Below, piece after piece: positions 9,061 through 24,211 of a DNA stretch of 64,000 bases (positions are counted from its first letter, which is position 1; the number at the start of each line of letters is the position of its first letter). This DNA comes from an uncultured Planctomycetales bacterium (GTDB taxonomy: Bacteria; Omnitrophota; Gorgyraeia; Zapsychrales; JANLHA01). The DNA lies in the NCBI GenBank assembly GCA_964489065.1, contig CAZAXH010000001.1, positions 85,106 to 149,105 on the forward strand, read 5' to 3'. The notes under the pieces are model-generated. The model ran no database searches and had not been told where the DNA came from. It worked only from the letters and a program-made list of their open reading frames with translations. The position numbers and the translations under genes are program-made.

Positions 9061-10038
9061 TCAGCGGGACATATCCGCCGGCCAATCCTCTTCCCGGGCG
9101 CCCAGCTCGTCAATATATTTTCGCAGGGAATTCTTCATTCTCTGCGTTATCTTATATCCATCGACTTTTTTCAGTATCTCATCCCGGCTGTGCCCTTTTT
9201 TATAAAGATTTTTCAGCACACCTTCAAAGACCGCTTTGAATCCGTAACGCCCGATCCCTTTTGAAATCACAACCAGGACACCCAGCACTCCCAGGCCACC
9301 GATCACCCCCCAGGGGCCTCCGAGCAGGGCCAAGCCTTCGACAACCGCGGCCGCCCCGACCACGCCGGTTATTTCCACAGCCAGCACCAGCACCAGCGCC
9401 GGGATACCCAATTGAGAAATCCTGGCAATCAACTCGTCATATTTCCAATTATCTCCATCTCGGACCGCCTCTTTTATGTTCCCGGGAACACGGCCGACGG
9501 CGTAAGCCCCGATCACAGCCGTATCCTTCACCTTTTCCGAGCCCCCACGCATCCCGTTCACCAGCTTATCCTTCACGGTGTTCCCGGCCCGCAAAGGCGC
9601 ATTCACAAAAGCTTTGGTCCCGTCCAGGGCGGACCGGCCCAGTTTTTTCCAGAAACCAAACGCCTCATTCATGCGGATGACATACAGCTTCAAAAGAAAC
9701 CGCAGAAGAAACACAGTCAAAACATAGGATAAAAAGGCGTTAATAAATAGCGCCGTGTTTGTCGTCAAAGACTGCGACTGCGGATACACCGCGGTAATTT
9801 TTCCGGAAAGGGTCGTGAAATAATCAAAAACAATCCAGAACAGGAATACCGAATACGCCAGAGACGCTTTAACAAGAAAAATCCTGGCTCTGTTTTTTTT
9901 CTTCCTGACGCCCGGCGTTTTCTGGTCTTCTCTGACGATATGATTGTACCGGACGCGGACGGCTTCCAGAAGAAGCACGGTAACGACAAAATATAAGATT
10001 GTTTCTTTATTCCTCCTGATCCCAGCAAAAAACATCAT
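9061..10038 (-). CDS. Hypothetical polytopic membrane protein
   Basis: 325 aa. Several hydrophobic helices and a Gly-rich hydrophobic segment (GLALLGGPWGVIGGLGVLGVLVV). No recognisable catalytic motif. Confidence 0.35.
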   Translation of the reverse strand: MMFFAGIRRNKETILYFVVTVLLLEAVRVRYNHIVREDQKTPGVRKKKNRARIFLVKASLAYSVFLFWIVFDYFTTLSGKITAVYPQSQSLTTNTALFINAFLSYVLTVFLLRFLLKLYVIRMNEAFGFWKKLGRSALDGTKAFVNAPLRAGNTVKDKLVNGMRGGSEKVKDTAVIGAYAVGRVPGNIKEAVRDGDNWKYDELIARISQLGIPALVLVLAVEITGVVGAAAVVEGLALLGGPWGVIGGLGVLGVLVVISKGIGRYGFKAVFEGVLKNLYKKGHSRDEILKKVDGYKITQRMKNSLRKYIDELGAREEDWPADMSR

Positions 10039-10112
10039 TCCCCCCTCGTGTTCGAAAAAGCCGTCCTTACCTTAAGACAAAAAATATTCGTCGCTTCCAT
10101 GATAAATAATTT

Positions 10113-11669
10113 CTAAAATAAACTCATCTGGTCATCCTGCGGCGTTCGTCTTTTATTTTTCAAAGCGGCCTGTTCATACTCGGCCAGACTGGTTTCGAAA
10201 TCCTTCAAAAAAGGGGACGCCCGGGGATGGAATGTCTGCCCGAACAACAAACGCTTTCTGGCGCGTAAAAGATATAACCGCTCGCGGGCCCTGGTCATAC
10301 CCACATAAAACAACCGGCGTTCTTCCCGGCTCTCGGCCTGAAGCCCGACCAGATTCAGCGGCAGCAGATTCTCCTCACACCCCACGATAAAAACAACGGG
10401 GAATTCCAGCCCTTTGGCGGCATGAAGCGTCATCAAAGACACACGTTCGGCGGTAACGCCTAACTCTTCGTACCGGGAAGGGCACACCGCTTCCGGCCCG
10501 TCTTCATCATTCTTATTCTCTCCGACGACATGGTACGGAATCCCCATGCGGTCAAAAGCCTGTTTCAGAAGTCTCGACTGTGTTTTAAGCCGGTAGAGAA
10601 CCGCGATATCGCCGAAACTCCGTTCCGCACCGCTTTCCGTAGCGACCCGGCCGGAATCCTGCGAAAACATGCTCGTGCCTCCGACGAGTTTCTCGATCTG
10701 GTGCACGACATATTCCGCCTCCGCTTTATCGGTTGCCGCCTCGAAAACCGTTAACTTCCCTTCCAGGTATAACTGCGCGGTCAAGACCGGGACAGCCCCG
10801 TCCGAATCCCGGGCCATCACCTGCCCCGAAGCCGCCAGGATTGTCTGCCCGGACCGGTAATTATCGCACAGCGTCACCCGGCGGGCGCCGGGGAAATCAT
10901 CCGAGAAACTCTGAAAAAAACGCTTATTCGCCCCCCGGAAACCGTAGATCGCCTGGTTGGGGTCCCCGATCGCGGTAATGCCCCCCTTCTCCCCCACCCA
11001 AAGTTTTAAAAAGGCGTGCTGGACAGGATTAATGTCCTGATATTCGTCCACAAAAACTTCCGGGACCTCCGACTGCAGGCCGGACAGGACAGCCGGATGC
11101 GCCCTTAAAAAATAAACCGTCTCGCATAACAGGTCATCAAAATCCAGCAACCCCCTTTCCCTCATGTGAGCATTGTAAAACATGACATCCTCGGGGACCG
11201 GACCGGAAAAAATCGTGGCCTTCCAACGGGAAACCGCCTCCAGCCTTTCCCGGAGCTGTTTATCGGTATCCCCCGGCCAAAGCGCGCGTCCGGCCTCCAG
11301 GGCCTGAACCGGGTCCGCGCATCGGAACCCGTCCGGGAGACCGCTCAAGGGCCCGGCGTCTTTCAGGATATTCAGGCAGACGGCGTGAAAAGTTCCCGTG
11401 ACCAGCCGGGGGAGAATGGTTTCGGCTTCGTCCGAACGCGCGATACGCGTTTTTATTTCTTCCGCGGCTTTTTGGGTAAACGTGATCGCACAGAATTTGT
11501 TCTTGGGGCCAGCGCGCCGTAAGCGGTACATCAGCCGGTGCGTCAGAGTGTGAGTTTTTCCGGTGCCCGGTCCGGCCACGATCAACAGGCGGGCCCCGGG
11601 TTCGGTTATCGCAGCCCATTGAGCGGAATTCACGGAATCTGGACGATCATAGTCCGTCATACAGGTCAC
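10113..11669 (-). CDS. UvrD/Rep-family superfamily-1 DNA helicase, minimal (518 aa)
   Basis: Walker A (AGPGTGKTHTL), DEYQD motif II (VDEYQDINPVQ), motif VI (GMTRARERLYL). Lacks the long C-terminal extension of canonical UvrD/PcrA. Start overlaps the upstream gene by 4 nt. Confidence 0.8.
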   Translation of the reverse strand: MTCMTDYDRPDSVNSAQWAAITEPGARLLIVAGPGTGKTHTLTHRLMYRLRRAGPKNKFCAITFTQKAAEEIKTRIARSDEAETILPRLVTGTFHAVCLNILKDAGPLSGLPDGFRCADPVQALEAGRALWPGDTDKQLRERLEAVSRWKATIFSGPVPEDVMFYNAHMRERGLLDFDDLLCETVYFLRAHPAVLSGLQSEVPEVFVDEYQDINPVQHAFLKLWVGEKGGITAIGDPNQAIYGFRGANKRFFQSFSDDFPGARRVTLCDNYRSGQTILAASGQVMARDSDGAVPVLTAQLYLEGKLTVFEAATDKAEAEYVVHQIEKLVGGTSMFSQDSGRVATESGAERSFGDIAVLYRLKTQSRLLKQAFDRMGIPYHVVGENKNDEDGPEAVCPSRYEELGVTAERVSLMTLHAAKGLEFPVVFIVGCEENLLPLNLVGLQAESREERRLFYVGMTRARERLYLLRARKRLLFGQTFHPRASPFLKDFETSLAEYEQAALKNKRRTPQDDQMSLF

Positions 11670-12961
11670 CTGAACAGGGTCATCTGATGATCAACCGTGT
11701 CTCTTTCATCATCGGAAAATATTTGCACTGTCCCGTACTCTCCGTCGTAACCGGCCGCGATCCGAACCTTCCCCTCCCGCACCCGGCGGATACCTTCCGC
11801 GATAAGCGTGCCGCTGACTTTTTGAATATCCGAAACCGGGATGTCCCGCAGGATCGCCATTTCATTGCCGAGTTTAGAAAGCATGTCCAGATATGCGGCC
11901 TGTACGGCCTTCGAGTTCACGCCCATAGACCGGGCTTCCGCGACCACTTCCGGGAGAGGAATCAAGCTGACGAAATCACGGGCATTGGGGGACCGGCGTC
12001 CTTCCGGATGATCGGCCAGTTCTTCCACGCGGGCCATGACCCCGACGGTCACCGGCTTGCCGCACACGGGGCACACCCCCTGATTCTCTCTGGTCTCCCG
12101 GGGATGCATCCGCGTATGGCATTGCCGATGCCCGTCAAAATGATACTTCCCTTCTTCCGGGAAGAATTCGACCGTGCCGACTAACCCGTCATGAGAAGGG
12201 TCCTGCAGGGCTTTATAAATTCCCGGATAAGAAAAAAAATCGGATTGAAAGACCGTGCTTTCCCGGCCCAATTTAGCCGGAGAATGCGCATCCGAGGACG
12301 ACACCATAACATACGGGTCCAACTGACTTAAACGCCAGTTCATCGGCGGGTCGGAAGAAAGACCGGTTTCGACGGCAAAGATATACCCGGAAAGATCGGC
12401 AAAACAATCTTCCAGGCGGTCAAACCCGCCTTTGGACCCCAGCGCCGAAAACCACGGCGTCCAGATATGCGCCGGAACCAAAAAGCTGGCCGGGTCAGAC
12501 CCCAAGACGATTTCCAGGAGATCCCGGGAATCCAGCCCTAAAATAGGCCGTCCGTCCGAACGGATATTGCCGATAGCGTCTAATTGTTTCTGAATCTTTT
12601 CCGCGACACTCAAATTGGGAGCGAAGACCACATTATGGACCTTGCGGACTTTATCCATCCGTTTATAGATATTCGAAATCTCCGTCGAAAGCATAAACCG
12701 CACTTCGCCCTGACAGGCCGCCGGCACACGGGATAACATCGGCCGGGCGATATCCCGGCGCAACGCATAAAAACCCTCTTCAGCGGGAACCAGTTTGTCC
12801 TGCAGCTCTTTGGCCCATCCCGGGTGCACGAAGTCGCCGGTGCTGACCACCTGAATCCCCTTCATCTGGGCCCAGACATATAAATGCTCCAAATTCAGCT
12901 CTTTGCTGGTTGCCCGGGAATAATGGGAATGAATATGTAAATCCGCGTAAAAAGGCATCAT
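11666..12961 (-). CDS. PHP-domain endonuclease with C-terminal zinc finger, EndoQ-like
   Basis: 431 aa. N-terminal ADLHIHSHYSRATS, then GTGDFVHPGW, GRPILGLD, PAHIWTPW, SSSDAHSPAKLGRE, GKYHFDGHRQCH...CPVCGKP and SKAV follow the order and spacing of the archaeal Endonuclease Q motifs as recalled from memory. Confidence 0.65.
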   Translation of the reverse strand: MMPFYADLHIHSHYSRATSKELNLEHLYVWAQMKGIQVVSTGDFVHPGWAKELQDKLVPAEEGFYALRRDIARPMLSRVPAACQGEVRFMLSTEISNIYKRMDKVRKVHNVVFAPNLSVAEKIQKQLDAIGNIRSDGRPILGLDSRDLLEIVLGSDPASFLVPAHIWTPWFSALGSKGGFDRLEDCFADLSGYIFAVETGLSSDPPMNWRLSQLDPYVMVSSSDAHSPAKLGRESTVFQSDFFSYPGIYKALQDPSHDGLVGTVEFFPEEGKYHFDGHRQCHTRMHPRETRENQGVCPVCGKPVTVGVMARVEELADHPEGRRSPNARDFVSLIPLPEVVAEARSMGVNSKAVQAAYLDMLSKLGNEMAILRDIPVSDIQKVSGTLIAEGIRRVREGKVRIAAGYDGEYGTVQIFSDDERDTVDHQMTLFR

Positions 12962-13205
12962 GTCCTTATTTATAGAACCCCGCGCATGACCACGGGCCTT
13001 ATTAACAATTCGCTTCGCAAAATGACCTGACCTCTTAACATAGGCGCGAACATTCCCGGGACGAAAGACCTTAGTAACCTCTCTCCTTCCCGGGCGCGCC
13101 CGGGGTCTTCTGCAAAGACGGATAAAAACCCCGGCCCCTCCCCGACCTCCCCCGAGGAATTGAGCCCATTATACAGAAAAACCGGCCCGACCGCAATCCT
13201 CCTTC

Positions 13206-15035
13206 TTAAACAACATTTGTCTCCCCCGCCCGGCTAGCCTGCCGCGCTATACGGCTGGAGAAAAACAACAGCAACGGCGGGGTCGCGTGGACGAAAAGGC
13301 GGGGGAAAACCTCGGGAGGAATTTCAGACAAACTTTCAAGAGGCGTGCCCATATGAGCCACCCAGACAAAAATCACCATGCCGGCCGACACCAGGCCCAG
13401 AAAAACTTCGGGTTCGGTCCATCGGAGCTTTTTCCGAAAAACAAAAACATAAAAACCCGCCAGCAGGGAATAGACGGGCATATTATTCGAGCAAAAATTC
13501 TTAGCGTTAATCTTTAAAAGCTGCAGAATCTTACCGGCCGACACCCCTTCTTTTAAATGTGTTAATGCCGAAGAATCCCCTCCGCGGCAGGATACCCAGT
13601 GCATCCAGCTTAACGGCAACCCGATAGATAAAAAGACAGCCCCTATCCAGGCCCCGGCCCGTTCAGACATCAACATCTTTCTGAAAAGCAGAACCATCGC
13701 CGCGCCCAGGATACCCGTGGCCACCATTCCTTCCAGTTTGCTTAAATTCAACCCCGTCAGCAAGATCAACGCCAGCCATAAATATCTTTTCTGATCCTTG
13801 GCATTCATCCACGCCAAAACAACGGTTAAAGCACCTGCCCAGAACGCCAGAAAAAGGTTTTCCGCGTTGGCAAAGGTGAAATGCACATACCACCACGGCT
13901 TGGTGAAATCATGACAAACGGAAACAAGGTAAAACAATAAAACGGAATAACGCCACGCCGGTTTCAAGCCCAAAAGCTGCAGAGCTTTCAAAACCTGGAT
14001 GACAAACACAAGAAAACACAGGGCCGACGTCCATTTCGCCAGTTCATCGTACATGCCGTCCAGCAGGGCGAACTGGGAAGCGATATTCAGGGGCCACAGC
14101 AGCGGGTAAGAGTTTAAATGCGTATATTCAAAATTCAAATGTTGATAATAATATAGCGTTTTCGATTTTAATATCCAGTGCGACATCCCGTCCCAGTCAA
14201 AGACCCCCGTTGAAACGGTGATCATAAAAACTCCCGCCGCAGCCGCAGCAACAAGACCGCCCAGGACCGGCGTGGCGAATCCGGCTGTCCGGCCTGGTCC
14301 GGTTGAAACCAGGCGGGTCTCTCCTTCTTTAAAGAAGACCAGCCGGCGCGACAGCCAGACTAAAAGAATCCCGAGCAGGGCCCATGTCCCCGAAACAACA
14401 CTGCGGGAAAGCGGAACCCCGAACAGCATCAGGATCCAGATTACGGCGGTGGGGAGCATAAAACCCAGGAGATAAGACGTGGCATAATACCAGAGGCGCC
14501 CCCACTCTTTGACCGCAACTCCCAGCGCCCGCAGCATAAAAACGCCGGTCAAAATATTGTAACCCGAAAAGAGAAGCACGGCGATGAGGACAACCGGCAA
14601 GGATGGTGAGGGGGACACCGCGGGAATCAAAGCCCCGGCCATCCAGGGCCGGGTATACAAAGAAACCGTGTCCGTGAGCGGGATTTCAATCCACTCCGCC
14701 GGTTCCCCGGGGGGGCGGTTCCTACCGTCTAAATGGAAATCGGAAACATCAACGATACGGTGCGGGAAAAGGAAATACCGCCAGATAACATAGGAAAACC
14801 CCTTACTTCTAAAAGACGTGCTCGCATCCGCTCCCTGCGGAAGGATGGCCCTCGCCTTCAGCGCCGCTCTGACGGACGGCTGTTGGCGGCGCAAATGTTC
14901 ATAATTAAAACCGCTCTGCGCAAATATCTTCGTGGATATATAAGTTTTCCTTGCGAGGAACCAGCCGCCAGCAAGAGTCACACAAAAGACGGGAAGGATC
15001 AAACACCACAAGAACAATGGAACCCAAAATTTCAT
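13206..15035 (-). CDS. Large polytopic integral membrane protein (12+ predicted helices), function unknown; possibly a GT-C-like or polymerase-like surface-glycan enzyme
   Basis: 609 aa, very hydrophobic throughout. No soluble domain signature recognised. Confidence 0.4.
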   Translation of the reverse strand: MKFWVPLFLWCLILPVFCVTLAGGWFLARKTYISTKIFAQSGFNYEHLRRQQPSVRAALKARAILPQGADASTSFRSKGFSYVIWRYFLFPHRIVDVSDFHLDGRNRPPGEPAEWIEIPLTDTVSLYTRPWMAGALIPAVSPSPSLPVVLIAVLLFSGYNILTGVFMLRALGVAVKEWGRLWYYATSYLLGFMLPTAVIWILMLFGVPLSRSVVSGTWALLGILLVWLSRRLVFFKEGETRLVSTGPGRTAGFATPVLGGLVAAAAAGVFMITVSTGVFDWDGMSHWILKSKTLYYYQHLNFEYTHLNSYPLLWPLNIASQFALLDGMYDELAKWTSALCFLVFVIQVLKALQLLGLKPAWRYSVLLFYLVSVCHDFTKPWWYVHFTFANAENLFLAFWAGALTVVLAWMNAKDQKRYLWLALILLTGLNLSKLEGMVATGILGAAMVLLFRKMLMSERAGAWIGAVFLSIGLPLSWMHWVSCRGGDSSALTHLKEGVSAGKILQLLKINAKNFCSNNMPVYSLLAGFYVFVFRKKLRWTEPEVFLGLVSAGMVIFVWVAHMGTPLESLSEIPPEVFPRLFVHATPPLLLFFSSRIARQASRAGETNVV

Positions 15036-19937: not shown

Positions 19938-22900
19938 TCATCCGGCCGCATCATAACCCAAGACCGGGCTCAACCACTTTTCCAGATCAGGAACCGGCAT
20001 CCCTTTTCTTCGGGCAAGGTCTTGCACCTGATCAAGGGCTATTTTCCCCAACCAGAAATATTTTGCCGCCGGATGGGAAAAATAAAATCCGCAAACGGAG
20101 GACGCGGGGATCATGGCGAAATTCTCGGTGAGACGGATCCCGGTGGTTTGTTCCACGTTCAACAGGCCGAACAACAACGGTTTCTCGGTATGGTCCGGGC
20201 ACGCAGGATAACCGGGAGCCGGGCGGATGCCCTGATAACGACACTGGAACAGCTCCTCGTTCGTCAGGTTTTCATCGGGAGCATACCCCCAATACTTTGT
20301 CCTGACCAGTTCATGCATACGCTCGGCAAAGGCTTCCGCCAGACGGTCGGACAAGGCCTTCACCAGAATACCGCGGTAGGAATCATGGTCCTTTTCATAC
20401 TTTTCCGCGAGTTCGGCCGTGCCAAACCCCGTGCTCACCGCGAATCCGCCGAGATAATCGGGGCGGCCCGTTGACCGGGGAGCGATAAAATCCGCAAGCG
20501 CGTAATACGGGCGCCCGTCATACTTCACGGCCTGTTGCCGCAAAGAATGGAAAGCAGTTAAAACATCCTTACGGCTTTCGTCCTCGTAAACTTCGATATC
20601 ATCCCCGACGCTGTTTGCGGGAAAGAAGCCCACCACCGCCCGGGCCTTCAGCAACTTCTGTCGCACGATCTCATCCAGCAACTGCTGCGCGTCCGCATAA
20701 AGCTTACGGGCTTCTCCCCCCTGCTGGGGGTCATCCAAGATTTTGGGAAAATGCCCTTTTAATTCCCAGGCCATAAAAAAGGGCGACCAGTCAATCTTCT
20801 CCCGGATTTCAGAAAGGTCAAAATGGTCAAAAACGCGGGTGCCCAAAAATTCCGGCGGCGTAAGCAGCGCCTGGGACCAATCCGTCTTAAGCCCTTTGCC
20901 CCGGGCTTCCGCCAGAGTCAAAAATTTCGTCTCGCTCCGGCGCCTGTCGAACTCTTCCCGGGCCGCCTGCTGTTCCGCCTGAATCTGTCCCGTAACCACT
21001 GTTTTCTGTTCCCCATCCAAGAGCTGACGGCTCAACTGCGCGCACCGGGACGCGTCTTTAATATGAACCACAAGCCCTTTATAGCAGGGGGCGATTTTTA
21101 CGGCCGTGTGCTGCAAAGAGGTCGTCGCCCCGCCGATTAAAATCGGGATCGTTAACCCGGCCTTGTCCATGTCCCGGGCAACATAGACCATCTCCTCCAG
21201 CGACGGCGTGATCAGCCCGCTCAACCCCACCATGTCGGCTTTTTCCCGTATCGCCGCCTCGACGATTTTTTCGGAAGGGACCATAACTCCTAAATCCACA
21301 ACCTCAAAATGGTTGCAGGCCAGGACCACGCTCACGATGTTCTTCCCGATATCGTGCACGTCGCCCTTCACGGTCGCCAGCAGAATTTTCCCTGCCCCGC
21401 GAGAAGACTTCCCGCTCTTTTCTTTTTCAATAAATGGCCTCAAATACGCCACGGCTTTCTTCATCACCCGGGCGCTTTTAACGACCTGGGGCAAAAACAT
21501 TTTCCCGGCACCGAACAAATCCCCGACGGTATTCATTCCTTTCATAAGCGGGCCTTCAATGACATCCAGAGGCCGCGGCGTTCTCTGGCGCACCTCCTCG
21601 GCGTCTTCCTCAATGTGTTCCACAAACCCCTTCACCAAGGCATGCGCGAGCCGATCTTCGGCCGGAAGACGCCGCCATTCCTGGTCGGCCGGCGCGGCCC
21701 TCCGCCCCTGCGTTTTGATCTGTTCGGCAAACACGACAAGACGTTCCGTCGCGTCCGGCCTTTTGTTCAAAAGAACGTCCTCAACGTGCCTCAAGAGATC
21801 TTGGGGGATTTCATCGTAAACAGCGATCATCCCCGCGTTGACAATCCCCATGTCCATCCCAGCCTGAATCGCGTGATATAAAAATGCCGCGTGCATCGCC
21901 TCCCGGACCACATTATTCCCCCGGAAAGAAAACGAAACATTACTCACCCCCCCGGAGACCCGGCAATGCGGCAAAGTGTTTTTAATCACACGCGTCGCTT
22001 CGATAAAATCCACGGCATAATTATTATGTTCTTCAATACCCGTCGCCACGGCAAAAACATTGGGGTCAAAAATAATGTCCTGGGGCCGAAATCCGACCTC
22101 CTCGGTCAGTATACGGTAAGCCCTCGTGCAGACATCCACTTTCCGGGCCTTCGAATCCGCCTGCCCTCGTTCGTCAAAAGCCATCACAACCACAGCTGCG
22201 CCCAACTTCTTCAACTCCGCGGCCTGTCGCTTAAAAACCTCTTCTCCTTCCTTCAGGGAAATGGAATTGACAATGGCCTTGCCCTGCACGCATTTCAGAC
22301 CCGCTTCAATCACGGGCCAGCGGGACGAATCGATCATAACGGGAACCCGGGCGATATCCGGTTCACTGGCAATAAGATTCAGGAATTTCACCATGGCTTT
22401 CCGGGAATCCAGCATCGCGTCATCCATATTCACGTCAACAATCTGGGCACCGGCCTCCACCTGCTGGCGGGCTACTGACAGGGCCTCTTCATACTGCTCG
22501 TTTTTAATCAAATCCGCGAATTTTTTGGAACCCGCGACATTGGTCCGTTCCCCGATATTAATAAAATTAGAGTCAGGCCGGATAACCAAGGCCTCCAATC
22601 CGCTCAAGCAGGTCCTCGCCGGAATATCAGGAAGGGCGCGCGGTCTAAACCCGGACACGGCGCGGCGGATCTCCCGGATATATTCCGGCGTGGTCCCGCA
22701 GCAACCACCGACGATATTGACATGCCCTTCCCGAGCGAAATCTGCGATCAGCCGAGCCATTTCCGACGGACTCTGGTCAAACCCGCCAAATCCGTCCGGC
22801 AGGCCCGCGTTAGGGTAACAACTGATATAACATGGCGCCAAACGGGACAACTCCGCAATATACGGCCGCAGCTTGTCCGCCCCCAGAGAGCAATTGAGCC

Positions 22901-23636
22901 CCACGGACAACGGGCCGGCATGCATCACGGAAATCCAAAACGCCTCCAGGGTCTGCCCGGAAAACATCCGGCCACTCGCGTCGGCAATCGTGCCGGAAAT
23001 CATAACCGGAATCCGGCGGCCGGCCCTTTCAAAGGCCCCCTCAATCGCGTAAAGGGCCGCTTTACAATTTAACGTGTCAAAAATCGTTTCAATCAAAAGG
23101 AAGTCCACTCCGCCATCCATAAGCCCGCGGACCTGCTCGGCGTACGCCGCGACCAGTTGGTCAAACGTGACCGCCCGGGAGCCAGGGTCATTCACATCCG
23201 TGGACATGGAAGCGGTCCGGTTCGTCGGGCCGATCGCCCCGGCCACAAAACGGGGCTGACTGGGATTTTGCCGCGTCATAGCCTCAGCGGCCCTGCGGGC
23301 AATCCTGGCGGACGCGATGTTAAATTCATACGCCTTCCCCTGCAATTGATAATCGGCCAGGCTGATCGCGTTGGCGCCGAAAGTATTCGTCTCAATGATA
23401 TCCGCTCCGGCGTCAAGATACGCACGGTGGATTTCTTCAATAATCTGCGGCTGGGTCAGCGAAAGGACATCCCCATTCCGTTTTAAATCCACAGGATGAT
23501 CCGCAAATATATCACCCCGCACCGCCTTCTCATCCAAATTATATTCCTGCACCATGGTGCCCATGGCCCCGTCTAGAATAAGAATCCTTTCTGCGAGGAG
23601 CTTAATAATCGGATGGGATAAACCGGCTGGCCGCAT
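19938..23636 (-). CDS. metH: Cobalamin-dependent methionine synthase
   Basis: 1232 aa. Hcy-binding, pterin-binding, B12-binding ([10 protein letters not shown]) and AdoMet-activation modules in canonical order. Confidence 0.95.
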
Positions 23637-23956: not shown

Positions 23957-24211
23957 ATCATTTATTCGGCAGCCGGGCTTTCCTGTTAGGATCCTTGGCT
24001 TTGCGTCCCCGCCTTACAACGGGTTTGCTTTTTCGCTAAATGAACGTTTAGTAGACCGCTTTATGCGATCAACCCTTTCTTAGTTAAATATAATATATAA
24101 TGTTATTATTTGCAAACAAAATGCCATTAAATTAACTATTTAACAACAAACGGGTTACATACAAATTCGCCAAACGGCAAACCAAAAAGCAAAAAATCTC
24201 CCAAAACGACC

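What the first reader, a model, noticed from the sequence alone, without database searches (positions are those of the whole stretch)
10113..12961. EndoQ-like PHP/zinc-finger endonuclease translationally coupled to a minimal UvrD-like helicase
The 431-aa protein carries the ordered Endonuclease Q motifs: DLHIHSHYS, GTGD..HPxW, GRP, PAH.xTPW, SDAHSP..LGRE, GKYH...C, and a CPxCG zinc ribbon. EndoQ incises 5' of deaminated or abnormal bases (dU, hypoxanthine, AP sites) and is chiefly archaeal, with scattered bacterial homologues.

Its stop overlaps by 4 nt (ATGA) the start of a 518-aa SF1 helicase that keeps all UvrD core motifs but lacks the usual C-terminal extension. That size is similar to stand-alone defence helicases such as GajB. 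A dedicated nuclease-helicase two-gene module is the typical grammar of both repair cassettes and anti-phage systems.

One hypothesis is that the pair restricts invading DNA containing dU or hypoxanthine (uracil-DNA phages) or processes deamination damage. I am not aware of a described EndoQ-helicase system.
Basis: partly seen in the sequence, partly recalled or inferred. Interest (0 to 1): 0.7.

Follow-up and report, generated by a model that had tools for sequence, protein, structure and literature searches.

The report
Clamp-tethered EndoQ nuclease with dedicated helicase
This is a real two-gene unit, a damaged-base-nicking enzyme (Endonuclease Q) followed by its own small UvrD-type helicase, and it is the split form of a nuclease-helicase fusion found across many bacterial phyla that looks like an undescribed DNA-repair module rather than an anti-phage system.

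Summary
Both ORFs are at the stated coordinates. The 431-aa protein is a full-length Endonuclease Q. It matches PfuEndoQ by sequence (E 1.6e-49) and by fold (TM 0.81/0.87). All metal ligands and most lesion-pocket residues are kept. The zinc site is H-C-C-C rather than C4.

The helicase is UvrD/PcrA/Rep-like with all core motifs. It lacks the whole 2B subdomain as well as the C-terminal domain. Its likely start is ATG 11660 (515 aa), 5 nt after the EndoQ stop. There is no ATGA overlap.

The pairing is not chance. In 73 of 77 informative genomes from at least 17 phyla, the helicase is fused to EndoQ (61), directly downstream (9), or downstream but interrupted (3). Characterised EndoQs (Thermococcus, Bacillales type) stand alone.

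Both window proteins end in a beta-clamp-binding-type motif (QMTLF, QMSLF). About 90% of homologues carry it, against 0 of 568 control ORFs.

The family is absent from phage and viral collections and occurs on 1 of 72,556 plasmids. Neighbours are housekeeping genes, with no defence islands.

Best reading: clamp-tethered nick-and-unwind repair of deaminated or abasic bases. I found no paper describing the EndoQ-helicase link.

The parts
11666..12961 (-). Endonuclease Q gene (431 aa): PHP catalytic domain, Zn-binding domain, C-terminal helical domain and a disordered tail
   Evidence: phmmer to PfuEndoQ 5zb8 gives E 1.6e-49 over residues 6-415. The AF2 model has pLDDT 87.5, and Foldseek to 5zb8/7k30 gives TMq 0.81 and TMt 0.87. 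TIGR00375 scores 181.6 bits, below its 326.6 cut-off.
12929..12937 (-). First metal-binding motif, H9-x-H11 (Pfu H8/H10). The other ligands are E94, H109, H165, D224 and H226.
   Evidence: Residue mapping onto PfuEndoQ. Ligand identities and mutant data come from PMC5961232.
12062..12130 (-). Zn-binding site H278, C281, C297, C300 (Pfu C249/C252/C268/C271). The first Cys is replaced by His throughout the helicase-linked bacterial clade.
   Evidence: GKYHxDGHRxC...CPxCG is seen in all bacterial members examined.
11672..11686 (-). EndoQ C-terminal QMTLF, a beta-clamp-binding-type motif, one residue before the stop
   Evidence: Qxx[LM]F occurs in the last 14 aa of 104 of 116 stand-alone homologues, against 0 of 568 control ORFs. 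The tail is disordered in the model. A clamp-motif consensus in bacterial EndoQ was already noted in PMC4858679.
11666..11671 (-). AGGTGA Shine-Dalgarno-like sequence for the helicase. It overlaps the EndoQ stop codon TGA and lies 5 nt upstream of ATG 11660.
   Evidence: Read directly from the sequence.
10113..11660 (-). UvrD/PcrA/Rep-type SF1A helicase gene. It is 515 aa from ATG 11660, or 518 aa if GTG 11669 is used.
   Evidence: Pfam UvrD-helicase 2.1e-54 and UvrD_C 1.9e-36. PDB UvrD1 1.4e-63 and PcrA 1.1e-59. AF2 pLDDT 81.8, with Foldseek to UvrD/PcrA/Rep at TMq 0.70-0.74. All motifs are present. The identical public protein P0121 is 515 aa.
10452..10511 (-). 20-residue disordered loop (helicase residues 384-403) in place of the 2B subdomain
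   Evidence: The alignment jumps from UvrD1 residue 405 to 591. pLDDT is below 50 for residues 384-403. The insert at this site ranges from 0 to 174 aa among relatives.
10116..10130 (-). Helicase C-terminal QMSLF, a beta-clamp-binding-type motif at the extreme C-terminus, preceded by the basic stretch KNKRR
   Evidence: 101 of 111 partner helicases and 88 of 129 fusion proteins end with Qxx[LM]F.

Best explanation
The pair is a dedicated two-protein DNA-repair module. It is the split form of a bacterial EndoQ-UvrD-type helicase fusion.

Proposed mechanism (all steps inferred):
1. EndoQ flips out a deaminated or missing base (dU, dI or an AP site) and nicks the strand immediately 5' of it. This leaves a 3'-OH.
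2. The partner helicase enters at that nick and unwinds the lesion-bearing strand. Tracking 3'->5' on the intact strand, as PcrA and UvrD do at nicks, would achieve this.
3. A clamp-bound polymerase resynthesises the patch. A flap nuclease and a ligase finish the repair.
4. Both proteins carry their own C-terminal QLxLF-type tail. They could therefore be recruited to, and perhaps sit together on, the dimeric beta sliding clamp. This would mirror PCNA stimulation of archaeal EndoQ.
5. Loss of the 2B subdomain should make the helicase a constitutively active monomer. 2B is autoinhibitory in Rep and UvrD (my knowledge of Rep-delta-2B work). Control would then be left to EndoQ and the clamp.

What is shown here: homology, catalytic-residue conservation, conserved fusion or adjacency, motif conservation, and chromosomal housekeeping context. 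What is inferred: substrate, clamp binding, helicase loading and direction, and the downstream steps.
For: EndoQ identity:
- Full-length sequence and fold match to PfuEndoQ.
- Metal ligands H8/H10/E76/H84/H139/D193/H195 are all conserved. Pocket residues T142/E167/G169/L170/S171 are conserved.

Helicase competence:
- All SF1 motifs are present.
- The motif residues are invariant across 71 partner helicases.

Functional linkage:
- EndoQ-helicase gene order is kept in Omnitrophota despite different flanking genes.
- 129 of the 150 best cluster representatives are at least 950 aa, the length of fusions; the five of these checked with Pfam carry the UvrD-helicase domains.
- Among 77 informative GTDB loci: 61 fused, 9 adjacent, 3 interrupted, 4 without a helicase.
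- EndoQ and helicase identities covary across loci (r = 0.69).

Clamp motif:
- It is found in 104 of 116 EndoQs, 101 of 111 helicases and 88 of 129 fusion C-termini.
- 51 of 129 fusions also keep an internal copy, 46 of them at one fixed offset. The chance rate is 0.5%.
- 0 of 568 control ORFs carry it.
- The consensus QLxLF/QLSLF is given in PMC4549789.
- Archaeal EndoQ binds PCNA through a C-terminal PIP box and is stimulated by it (PMC4858679).

Repair rather than defence:
- The window context is housekeeping: MTHFR, DsbD, AsmA, MlaDEF and MetH.
- No family recurs in more than 3 of 141 immediate neighbours. PADLOC gives only generic hits among them.
- There are no relatives in viral contigs or phage records, and one plasmid hit in 72,556.
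- A helicase step after EndoQ incision was already postulated for archaea (PMC4357722).
Against: - There are no biochemical data for any member of this helicase-linked clade.
- The protein scores below the TIGR00375 equivalog cut-off.
- It is only about 34% identical to Pfu EndoQ and 26% to the Bacillales-type EndoQ.
- The Zn site has one Cys replaced by His. Pocket positions L168 and N191 differ. Substrate range could therefore differ.
- Clamp binding is inferred from a short linear motif only.
- Characterised EndoQs work without a dedicated helicase, so the helicase's role is not established.
- The 80 loci examined are the best-scoring 80 of at least 555. They are biased towards this clade.
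- The literature library is incomplete. The 2017 B. pumilus EndoQ paper and the 2021 PNAS structure paper are not held.
Confidence: 0.65

Rival explanations
1. Anti-phage or anti-foreign-DNA restriction. EndoQ nicks invading DNA that contains dU or hypoxanthine (for example uracil-DNA phages), and the helicase drives its degradation.
For: Nuclease plus SF1-helicase is a common defence arrangement. PADLOC GajB and DRT helicase models hit the helicase. A review reports that an antiviral role was suggested for Bacillus EndoQ and that it is insensitive to the phage Ugi inhibitor (PMC8307549).
Against: - EndoQ has no PADLOC hit.
- The helicase is far closer to UvrD/PcrA than to GajB.
- There is no GajA or other defence partner.
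- Neighbours in the window and in 80 genomes are housekeeping and non-recurrent.
- The family is absent from IMG/VR and phage records, and occurs on 1 of 72,556 plasmids.
- EndoQ stays 50-67% identical across at least 17 phyla. In my experience defence genes turn over faster than that.
- Clamp-binding tails point to the host replisome.
Confidence: 0.1
2. A helicase-nuclease machine for another DNA transaction, such as end resection, flap or fork processing, or removal of embedded ribonucleotides. The EndoQ-like domain would have drifted from deaminated-base recognition.
For: - UvrD-like helicase plus nuclease fusions (AddA, RecB, AdnAB) are next in the fold search after the UvrD/PcrA/Rep chains (first at rank 26).
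- The clade is divergent from characterised EndoQs and falls below the TIGR00375 cut-off.
- The Zn site and two pocket positions differ.
- In eight Desulfobacterota loci the gene lies beside dnaN-gyrB, and an RdgC family is matched among the immediate neighbours.
Against: - The lesion-pocket residues that exclude normal T and A (H139, G169, S171, per PMC8307549) are conserved, as are T142, E167 and L170.
- The whole three-domain EndoQ fold is kept.
- The nuclease-N, helicase-C domain order and the PHP chemistry differ from the AddA/RecB helicase-nucleases as I recall them (helicase N-terminal, PD-(D/E)xK-type nuclease C-terminal).
Confidence: 0.2
3. Chance adjacency of EndoQ with an ordinary truncated PcrA/UvrD paralogue that has no functional link to it.
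For: UvrD-family paralogues are common. Four of 77 loci have EndoQ without a downstream helicase. Characterised EndoQs are stand-alone.
Against: - The helicase is fused or adjacent in 73 of 77 loci across at least 17 phyla.
- Gene fusions dominate the family.
- The gene order is conserved amid unrelated flanks.
- Both partners share the C-terminal motif.
- Their divergence is correlated.
Confidence: 0.02

Closest known systems
Archaeal Endonuclease Q (P. furiosus PF1551 / T. kodakarensis TK0887; PDB 5ZB8, 7K30)
   Same: - The same three-domain fold (TM 0.81/0.87).
- All metal ligands and most lesion-pocket residues are kept.
- Both have a C-terminal sliding-clamp-binding tail: a PIP box in archaea, a QLxLF type here.
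   Different: - About 30-34% identity.
- The Zn site is H-C-C-C instead of C4.
- The clamp partner would be bacterial beta, not PCNA.
- The archaeal enzymes are stand-alone, about 420 aa, with no helicase neighbour. This clade is fused to, or followed by, a UvrD-type helicase.
Bacillales-type bacterial EndoQ (B. pumilus / B. subtilis type; seen here in Brevibacillus laterosporus WP_031414379.1)
   Same: It is a bacterial EndoQ family member with the same catalytic motifs.
   Different: - Only 26.5% identical.
- C4 zinc site.
- No C-terminal QxxLF motif.
- It sits next to a NUDIX hydrolase and spoIIM, with no helicase.
UvrD / PcrA / Rep SF1A helicases
   Same: - They are the best sequence and fold matches.
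- All helicase motifs are shared, and the 1A/1B/2A core is retained.
- They are known to act at nicks made by a partner nuclease: UvrC in nucleotide excision repair, MutH/MutL in mismatch repair, RepD in rolling-circle replication (my knowledge).
   Different: - The 2B subdomain is replaced by a 20-residue loop.
- There is no C-terminal Tudor-like domain. A basic linker plus a clamp-binding-type motif takes its place.
- Scores are far below the PcrA, UvrD and Rep equivalog cut-offs (304.7 against 911 for PcrA).
- It is genetically tied to EndoQ.
Gabija GajB (defence UvrD-like helicase)
   Same: Similar size (about 500 aa) and SF1A family. PADLOC GajB models hit at 3.4e-72.
   Different: - The match to solved GajB is only 1e-13, over about 60 residues around Walker A.
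- GajB is not among the top 50 fold hits.
- There is no GajA partner and no defence context.
AddAB / RecBCD / AdnAB helicase-nucleases
   Same: A UvrD-like motor is physically coupled to a nuclease. They are next in the fold search after the UvrD/PcrA/Rep chains (first at rank 26).
   Different: As I recall them, those enzymes have the helicase N-terminal to a PD-(D/E)xK-type nuclease and act on double-strand ends. Here a lesion-specific PHP-type nicking enzyme is N-terminal (or a separate protein).

Membership tests
Endonuclease Q | Full-length homology and three-domain fold (PHP, Zn-binding, C-terminal helical) | tested here: met
   phmmer E 1.6e-49 over residues 6-415. Foldseek to 5zb8/7k30 gives TMq 0.81 and TMt 0.87. 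The next hits are PHP-domain only, with TMq 0.37 or lower.
Endonuclease Q | Metal-coordinating residues H8, H10, E76, H84, H139, D193 (plus H195) | tested here: met
   They map to H9, H11, E94, H109, H165, D224 and H226. Their roles are described in PMC5961232.
Endonuclease Q | Lesion-recognition pocket (H139, T142, E167, L168, G169, L170, S171, N191, D193) | tested here: met
   Seven of nine residues are identical. L168->T and N191->S are positions that contact through the main chain in Pfu.
Endonuclease Q | C4 zinc-binding site (C249, C252, C268, C271) | tested here: inconclusive
   The site here is H278, C281, C297, C300. The first ligand is His in the whole helicase-linked clade. It is plausibly still a Zn site, but this was not demonstrated.
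Endonuclease Q | NCBIfam TIGR00375 equivalog score cut-off | tested here: not met
   181.6 bits against a cut-off of 326.6. NCBI nevertheless names close homologues 'endonuclease Q family protein'.
Endonuclease Q | C-terminal sliding-clamp interaction motif | tested here: met
   QMTLF sits one residue before the stop. The motif is conserved in 104 of 116 homologues. Binding itself was not tested.
Endonuclease Q | Incision immediately 5' of dU, dI or AP sites | not testable with these tools
   This requires a biochemical assay.
UvrD/PcrA/Rep (SF1A) helicases | Conserved helicase motifs Q, I, Ia, II, III, IV, V, VI | tested here: met
   All eight motifs were found. The motif residues are invariant in 71 partner helicases.
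UvrD/PcrA/Rep (SF1A) helicases | Four-subdomain architecture 1A/1B/2A/2B | tested here: not met
   2B is absent. The alignment skips UvrD1 residues 405-591, and residues 384-403 form a disordered loop.
UvrD/PcrA/Rep (SF1A) helicases | Equivalog-level identity to PcrA, UvrD or Rep (NCBIfam cut-offs) | tested here: not met
   PcrA 304.7 against 911.2. UvrD 265 against 1144. Rep 279 against 951.
Gabija (GajA/GajB) | GajB-type helicase encoded next to a GajA OLD-family ATPase/TOPRIM nuclease | tested here: not met
   The upstream partner is EndoQ, which has no PADLOC hit. The nearest genes on either side give no Pfam match; beyond them lie MTHFR and DsbD/AsmA, with none matching a GajA-like ATPase or TOPRIM family. 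Solved GajB matches only at 1e-13.
Anti-phage defence systems in general | Location in defence islands or on mobile elements, with patchy distribution | tested here: not met
   Among 141 immediate neighbours from 80 genomes there are only generic PADLOC hits, each in 2 members or fewer. There are no IMG/VR or phage matches, and 1 plasmid in 72,556.
AddAB/RecBCD-type helicase-nucleases | PD-(D/E)xK (RecB-family) nuclease domain C-terminal to the motor | tested here: not met
   The helicase ends after motif VI with a linker and QMSLF. Pfam finds no nuclease domain in it. The nuclease here is a PHP/EndoQ type encoded upstream.

The most novel reading that the evidence does not exclude
EndoQ and its dedicated 2B-less (or fused) UvrD-type helicase assemble on one beta-clamp dimer. 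Together they form a self-contained, glycosylase-independent 'nick-and-unwind' excision pathway for deaminated and abasic bases. This would be a general bacterial repair route present in at least 17 phyla that has gone unrecognised because the fusions are annotated simply as UvrD/PcrA/Rep helicases.
Probability: 0.4. Interest if true: 0.75.

Novelty: new variant of a known kind. Interest (0 to 1): 0.55.

Why it matters
What happens after EndoQ nicks DNA is an acknowledged open question. The discoverers proposed either strand-displacement synthesis or removal by an unidentified helicase (PMC4357722). In this large bacterial clade the genome supplies the answer candidate directly: a helicase fused to EndoQ or co-transcribed with it, with both parts carrying clamp-binding tails. 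That makes the downstream pathway testable with two proteins plus DnaN.

The work also corrects the view that EndoQ is essentially archaeal. It explains a recurrent mis-annotation, in which stand-alone EndoQs are named 'DNA helicase II/PcrA' and fusions are named 'Rep' or 'UvrD-helicase domain-containing protein'. It also provides natural 2B-less SF1A helicases for testing the autoinhibition model of UvrD/Rep.

Tried and rejected
- **Gabija or other defence assignment: rejected.** PADLOC GajB hits are generic. EndoQ has no PADLOC hit, and there is no GajA.
- **Mobile-element origin: rejected.** The IMG/VR scan confirmed no relative. The phage records gave no match. The plasmid collection gave one hit, a Bacillus-type EndoQ on a 733-kb replicon.
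- **A conserved third gene: none found.** All-against-all clustering of 568 flank ORFs found only lineage-specific synteny (dnaN and gyrB in eight Desulfobacterota loci). Pfam and PADLOC scans of 141 immediate neighbours found no family in more than 3 members.
- **Promoter and terminator scan of 9800-13400: uninformative.** Counts were close to the shuffled expectation.
- **Rfam scan of the window.** Nothing was found near the locus.
- **Literature searches.** I searched for an EndoQ-UvrD or PHP-UvrD fusion or operon, for COG1379/TIGR00375/MJ0043/YqxK, and for EndoQ with defence. No description of the link was found. The clamp motif on bacterial EndoQ turned out to be already noted, so I do not claim it as new.
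- **Phylogeny against housekeeping UvrD.** I did not build a rooted tree of partner helicases against housekeeping UvrD. Identity alone (33-54%) does not separate them cleanly from a neighbouring ordinary UvrD in L045.


Full report
**Observation**

The 431-aa ORF is at 11666..12961 (-). A UvrD-like ORF directly downstream ends at 10113.

The junction reads ...CAG ATG ACC CTG TTC AGG TGA CCTGT ATG ACG.... The 4-nt overlap is therefore GTGA, not ATGA. It applies only if GTG 11669 is the start.

ATG 11660 is the more likely start. It is preceded by AGGTGA at a 5-nt spacing. The 100%-identical public protein P0121 is 515 aa long, which fits this start. Either way the genes are tightly packed on one strand. 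The helicase's ribosome-binding site lies over the EndoQ stop codon.

**EndoQ identity**

- phmmer against the PDB matches PfuEndoQ (5zb8) at E 1.6e-49 over residues 6-415.
- Mapping onto the Pfu numbering shows every metal ligand conserved: H8/H10/E76/H84/H139/D193/H195 become H9/H11/E94/H109/H165/D224/H226.
- Seven of nine lesion-pocket residues are conserved (residue roles from PMC5961232, and PMC8307549).
- The Zn site has His in place of the first Cys (H278/C281/C297/C300). This holds across the whole bacterial clade examined.
- An AF2 model (pLDDT 87.5) superposes on 5zb8/7k30 with TM 0.81/0.87. The next hits are isolated PHP domains with TMq 0.37 or lower.
- The protein scores below the TIGR00375 equivalog cut-off (181.6 against 326.6). 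It is thus a divergent branch of the family.

**The helicase**

- Pfam, NCBIfam and the PDB place it in the UvrD/PcrA/Rep group. All SF1 motifs are present.
- The motif residues are invariant across 71 homologues.
- The alignment to M. tuberculosis UvrD1 jumps from residue 405 to 591 while the query moves only from 384 to 408.
- In the AF2 model (pLDDT 81.8) residues 384-403 form a disordered loop. The 2B subdomain is therefore missing, not only the C-terminal extension.
- Foldseek returns UvrD, PcrA and Rep (TMq 0.70-0.74). No GajB appears in the top 50.
- The strong PADLOC GajB hits reflect generic UvrD similarity. Solved GajB matches only at 1e-13, around Walker A.

**Is the pairing conserved?**

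Yes, strongly.

- In four Omnitrophota genomes with unrelated flanking genes, EndoQ is followed by a 426-574-aa UvrD-type helicase on the same strand. It is directly adjacent in three; in L004/L005 a 176-aa ORF lies between.
- An exhaustive HMMER search of 1.84 billion cluster representatives found 3,914 relatives (1,081 at E<=1e-30). Of the best 150, 129 are at least 950 aa with EndoQ at the N-terminus.
- The five of these long representatives that were scanned with Pfam all carry a UvrD helicase C-terminal to EndoQ. One named example is Neomoorella glycerini WP_156272870.1, annotated 'UvrD-helicase domain-containing protein' or 'Rep'.
The 80 best come from at least 17 phyla. These include Omnitrophota, Planctomycetota, Chloroflexota, Myxococcota, Desulfobacterota, Actinomycetota, Clostridia, Bacteroidota, Melainabacteria, Elusimicrobia and CPR.
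- Of 77 loci with enough downstream sequence, 61 are fused and 9 are split but adjacent. Three have the helicase interrupted by a frameshift or stop, and 4 have no helicase.
- EndoQ and helicase identities to the window proteins covary (r = 0.69).
- The insert at the 2B position ranges from 0 to about 174 aa. The window carries the minimal end of a continuum.

By contrast, the characterised EndoQs stand alone. T. kodakarensis TK0887 has no helicase neighbour, and all 120 Thermococcales hits are about 420 aa or shorter, none with a helicase domain. A Bacillales-type EndoQ lies between a NUDIX hydrolase and spoIIM.

**Clamp-binding tails**

EndoQ ends ...DHQMTLFR and the helicase ends ...DDQMSLF.

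| Set | Qxx[LM]F in last 14 residues |
|---|---|
| Stand-alone EndoQ homologues | 104 of 116 |
| Partner helicases | 101 of 111 |
| Fusion proteins | 88 of 129 |
| Control flank ORFs | 0 of 568 |

- The commonest forms are QLTLF, QLSLF, QMSLF and QLDLF.
- 51 of 129 fusions also keep an internal copy after the EndoQ domain. In 46 of them it lies at one fixed offset. The chance rate is 0.5%.
- This matches the bacterial beta-clamp-binding consensus QLxLF/QLSLF (PMC4549789).
- The tails are disordered in both models.
- Archaeal EndoQ binds PCNA through a C-terminal PIP box and is stimulated by it. The same paper already remarked that bacterial EndoQ homologues carry a beta-clamp motif consensus (PMC4858679). 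The EndoQ motif is therefore not new. I found no mention of the matching motif on the partner helicase.
- The Bacillales-type EndoQ examined here lacks the motif.

**Repair or defence?**

- The window context is housekeeping: MTHFR, DsbD, AsmA-like, MlaDEF and MetH. It is syntenic with a 3.3-Mb relative.
- Clustering 568 flank ORFs from 80 genomes found no recurrent partner beyond lineage-specific synteny. In eight Desulfobacterota loci dnaN and gyrB lie just upstream.
- Among 141 immediate neighbours no Pfam family occurs more than three times. PADLOC hits are generic (kinases, methyltransferases) and occur in 2 members or fewer.
- The family is absent from 2.9 million IMG/VR contigs and from 50,697 phage records. 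It occurs on 1 of 72,556 plasmids.
- EndoQ stays 50-67% identical across phyla.
- Together with the clamp tails, this favours a replication-linked genome-maintenance role over anti-phage restriction.

**Mechanism (inferred)**

1. EndoQ nicks 5' of dU, dI or an AP site.
2. The helicase enters at the nick and peels off the lesion-bearing strand.
3. A clamp-bound polymerase, a flap nuclease and a ligase complete the patch.
4. Two tails and a dimeric clamp would allow both proteins to sit on one clamp.
5. Loss of the autoinhibitory 2B domain (my knowledge of Rep-delta-2B work) predicts a constitutively active monomer.

A helicase step after EndoQ incision was postulated for archaea but never identified (PMC4357722).

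**Literature and novelty**

Searches for EndoQ with UvrD or helicase, PHP domain with UvrD, COG1379/TIGR00375/YqxK, and EndoQ with defence found no description of the fusion or operon. The library is incomplete, and two key EndoQ papers are not held.

The window locus is an ordinary member of a very widespread module. The module itself appears undescribed, although it is visible in databases under helicase names. I rate it a new variant of a known kind, with moderate interest.

Noticed in passing
window 23965-24039 (-), upstream of ORF 19938-23636 (-): A c-di-GMP-I riboswitch aptamer (Rfam RF01051, 60.9 bits, E 1.9e-09) lies 329 nt upstream of a 1232-aa ORF. That ORF is a cobalamin-dependent methionine synthase (MetH) by synteny with L001. 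No ORF of 30 aa or more lies between them on that strand. As far as I know, this is an unusual gene for this riboswitch class to precede.
   Followed up: partly
L021, L024, L044, L048, L057, L073, L075, L083 (upstream flanks): In eight Desulfobacterota genomes the EndoQ(-helicase) gene lies 0.4-3.3 kb from dnaN (the beta clamp), and gyrB lies beyond dnaN in seven of them. An RdgC family is matched by three of the immediate neighbours scanned. This is lineage-specific synteny, but suggestive given the clamp-binding tails.
   Followed up: partly
P0035, P0079, P0085, P0101; P0480: Stand-alone EndoQ proteins of about 430 aa are named 'DNA helicase II / PcrA' or 'DNA helicase UvrD' by some sources. 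One Thermococcus barophilus EndoQ carries such a name in UniRef. These names may have been transferred from EndoQ-helicase fusion proteins.
   Followed up: partly
L004 9307-9837 and L005 8905-9435: In one Omnitrophota lineage a 176-aa ORF with no Pfam hit is inserted between EndoQ and the helicase. It could be an extra component or a spurious gene call.
   Followed up: no
window 1-64000: Nearly all long ORFs are on the minus strand, and GC skew is negative throughout. This fits a single replichore with strong co-orientation of genes with replication.
   Followed up: no
window 9061-10038 (-) and 13206-15035 (-): The genes flanking the module encode 325-aa and 609-aa proteins with no Pfam match; their sequences look like multi-pass membrane proteins to my eye. 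The 609-aa gene has a same-position counterpart in the syntenic relative L001; the 325-aa gene's position there is occupied by 194-aa and 307-aa ORFs, also without Pfam hits.
   Followed up: no
L039, L040, L082, L083: In L039, L082 and L083 a frameshift or an early stop interrupts the helicase part of the gene; in L040 an in-frame stop lies at the junction with the helicase. These could be assembly errors or real decay of the module in some lineages.
   Followed up: no
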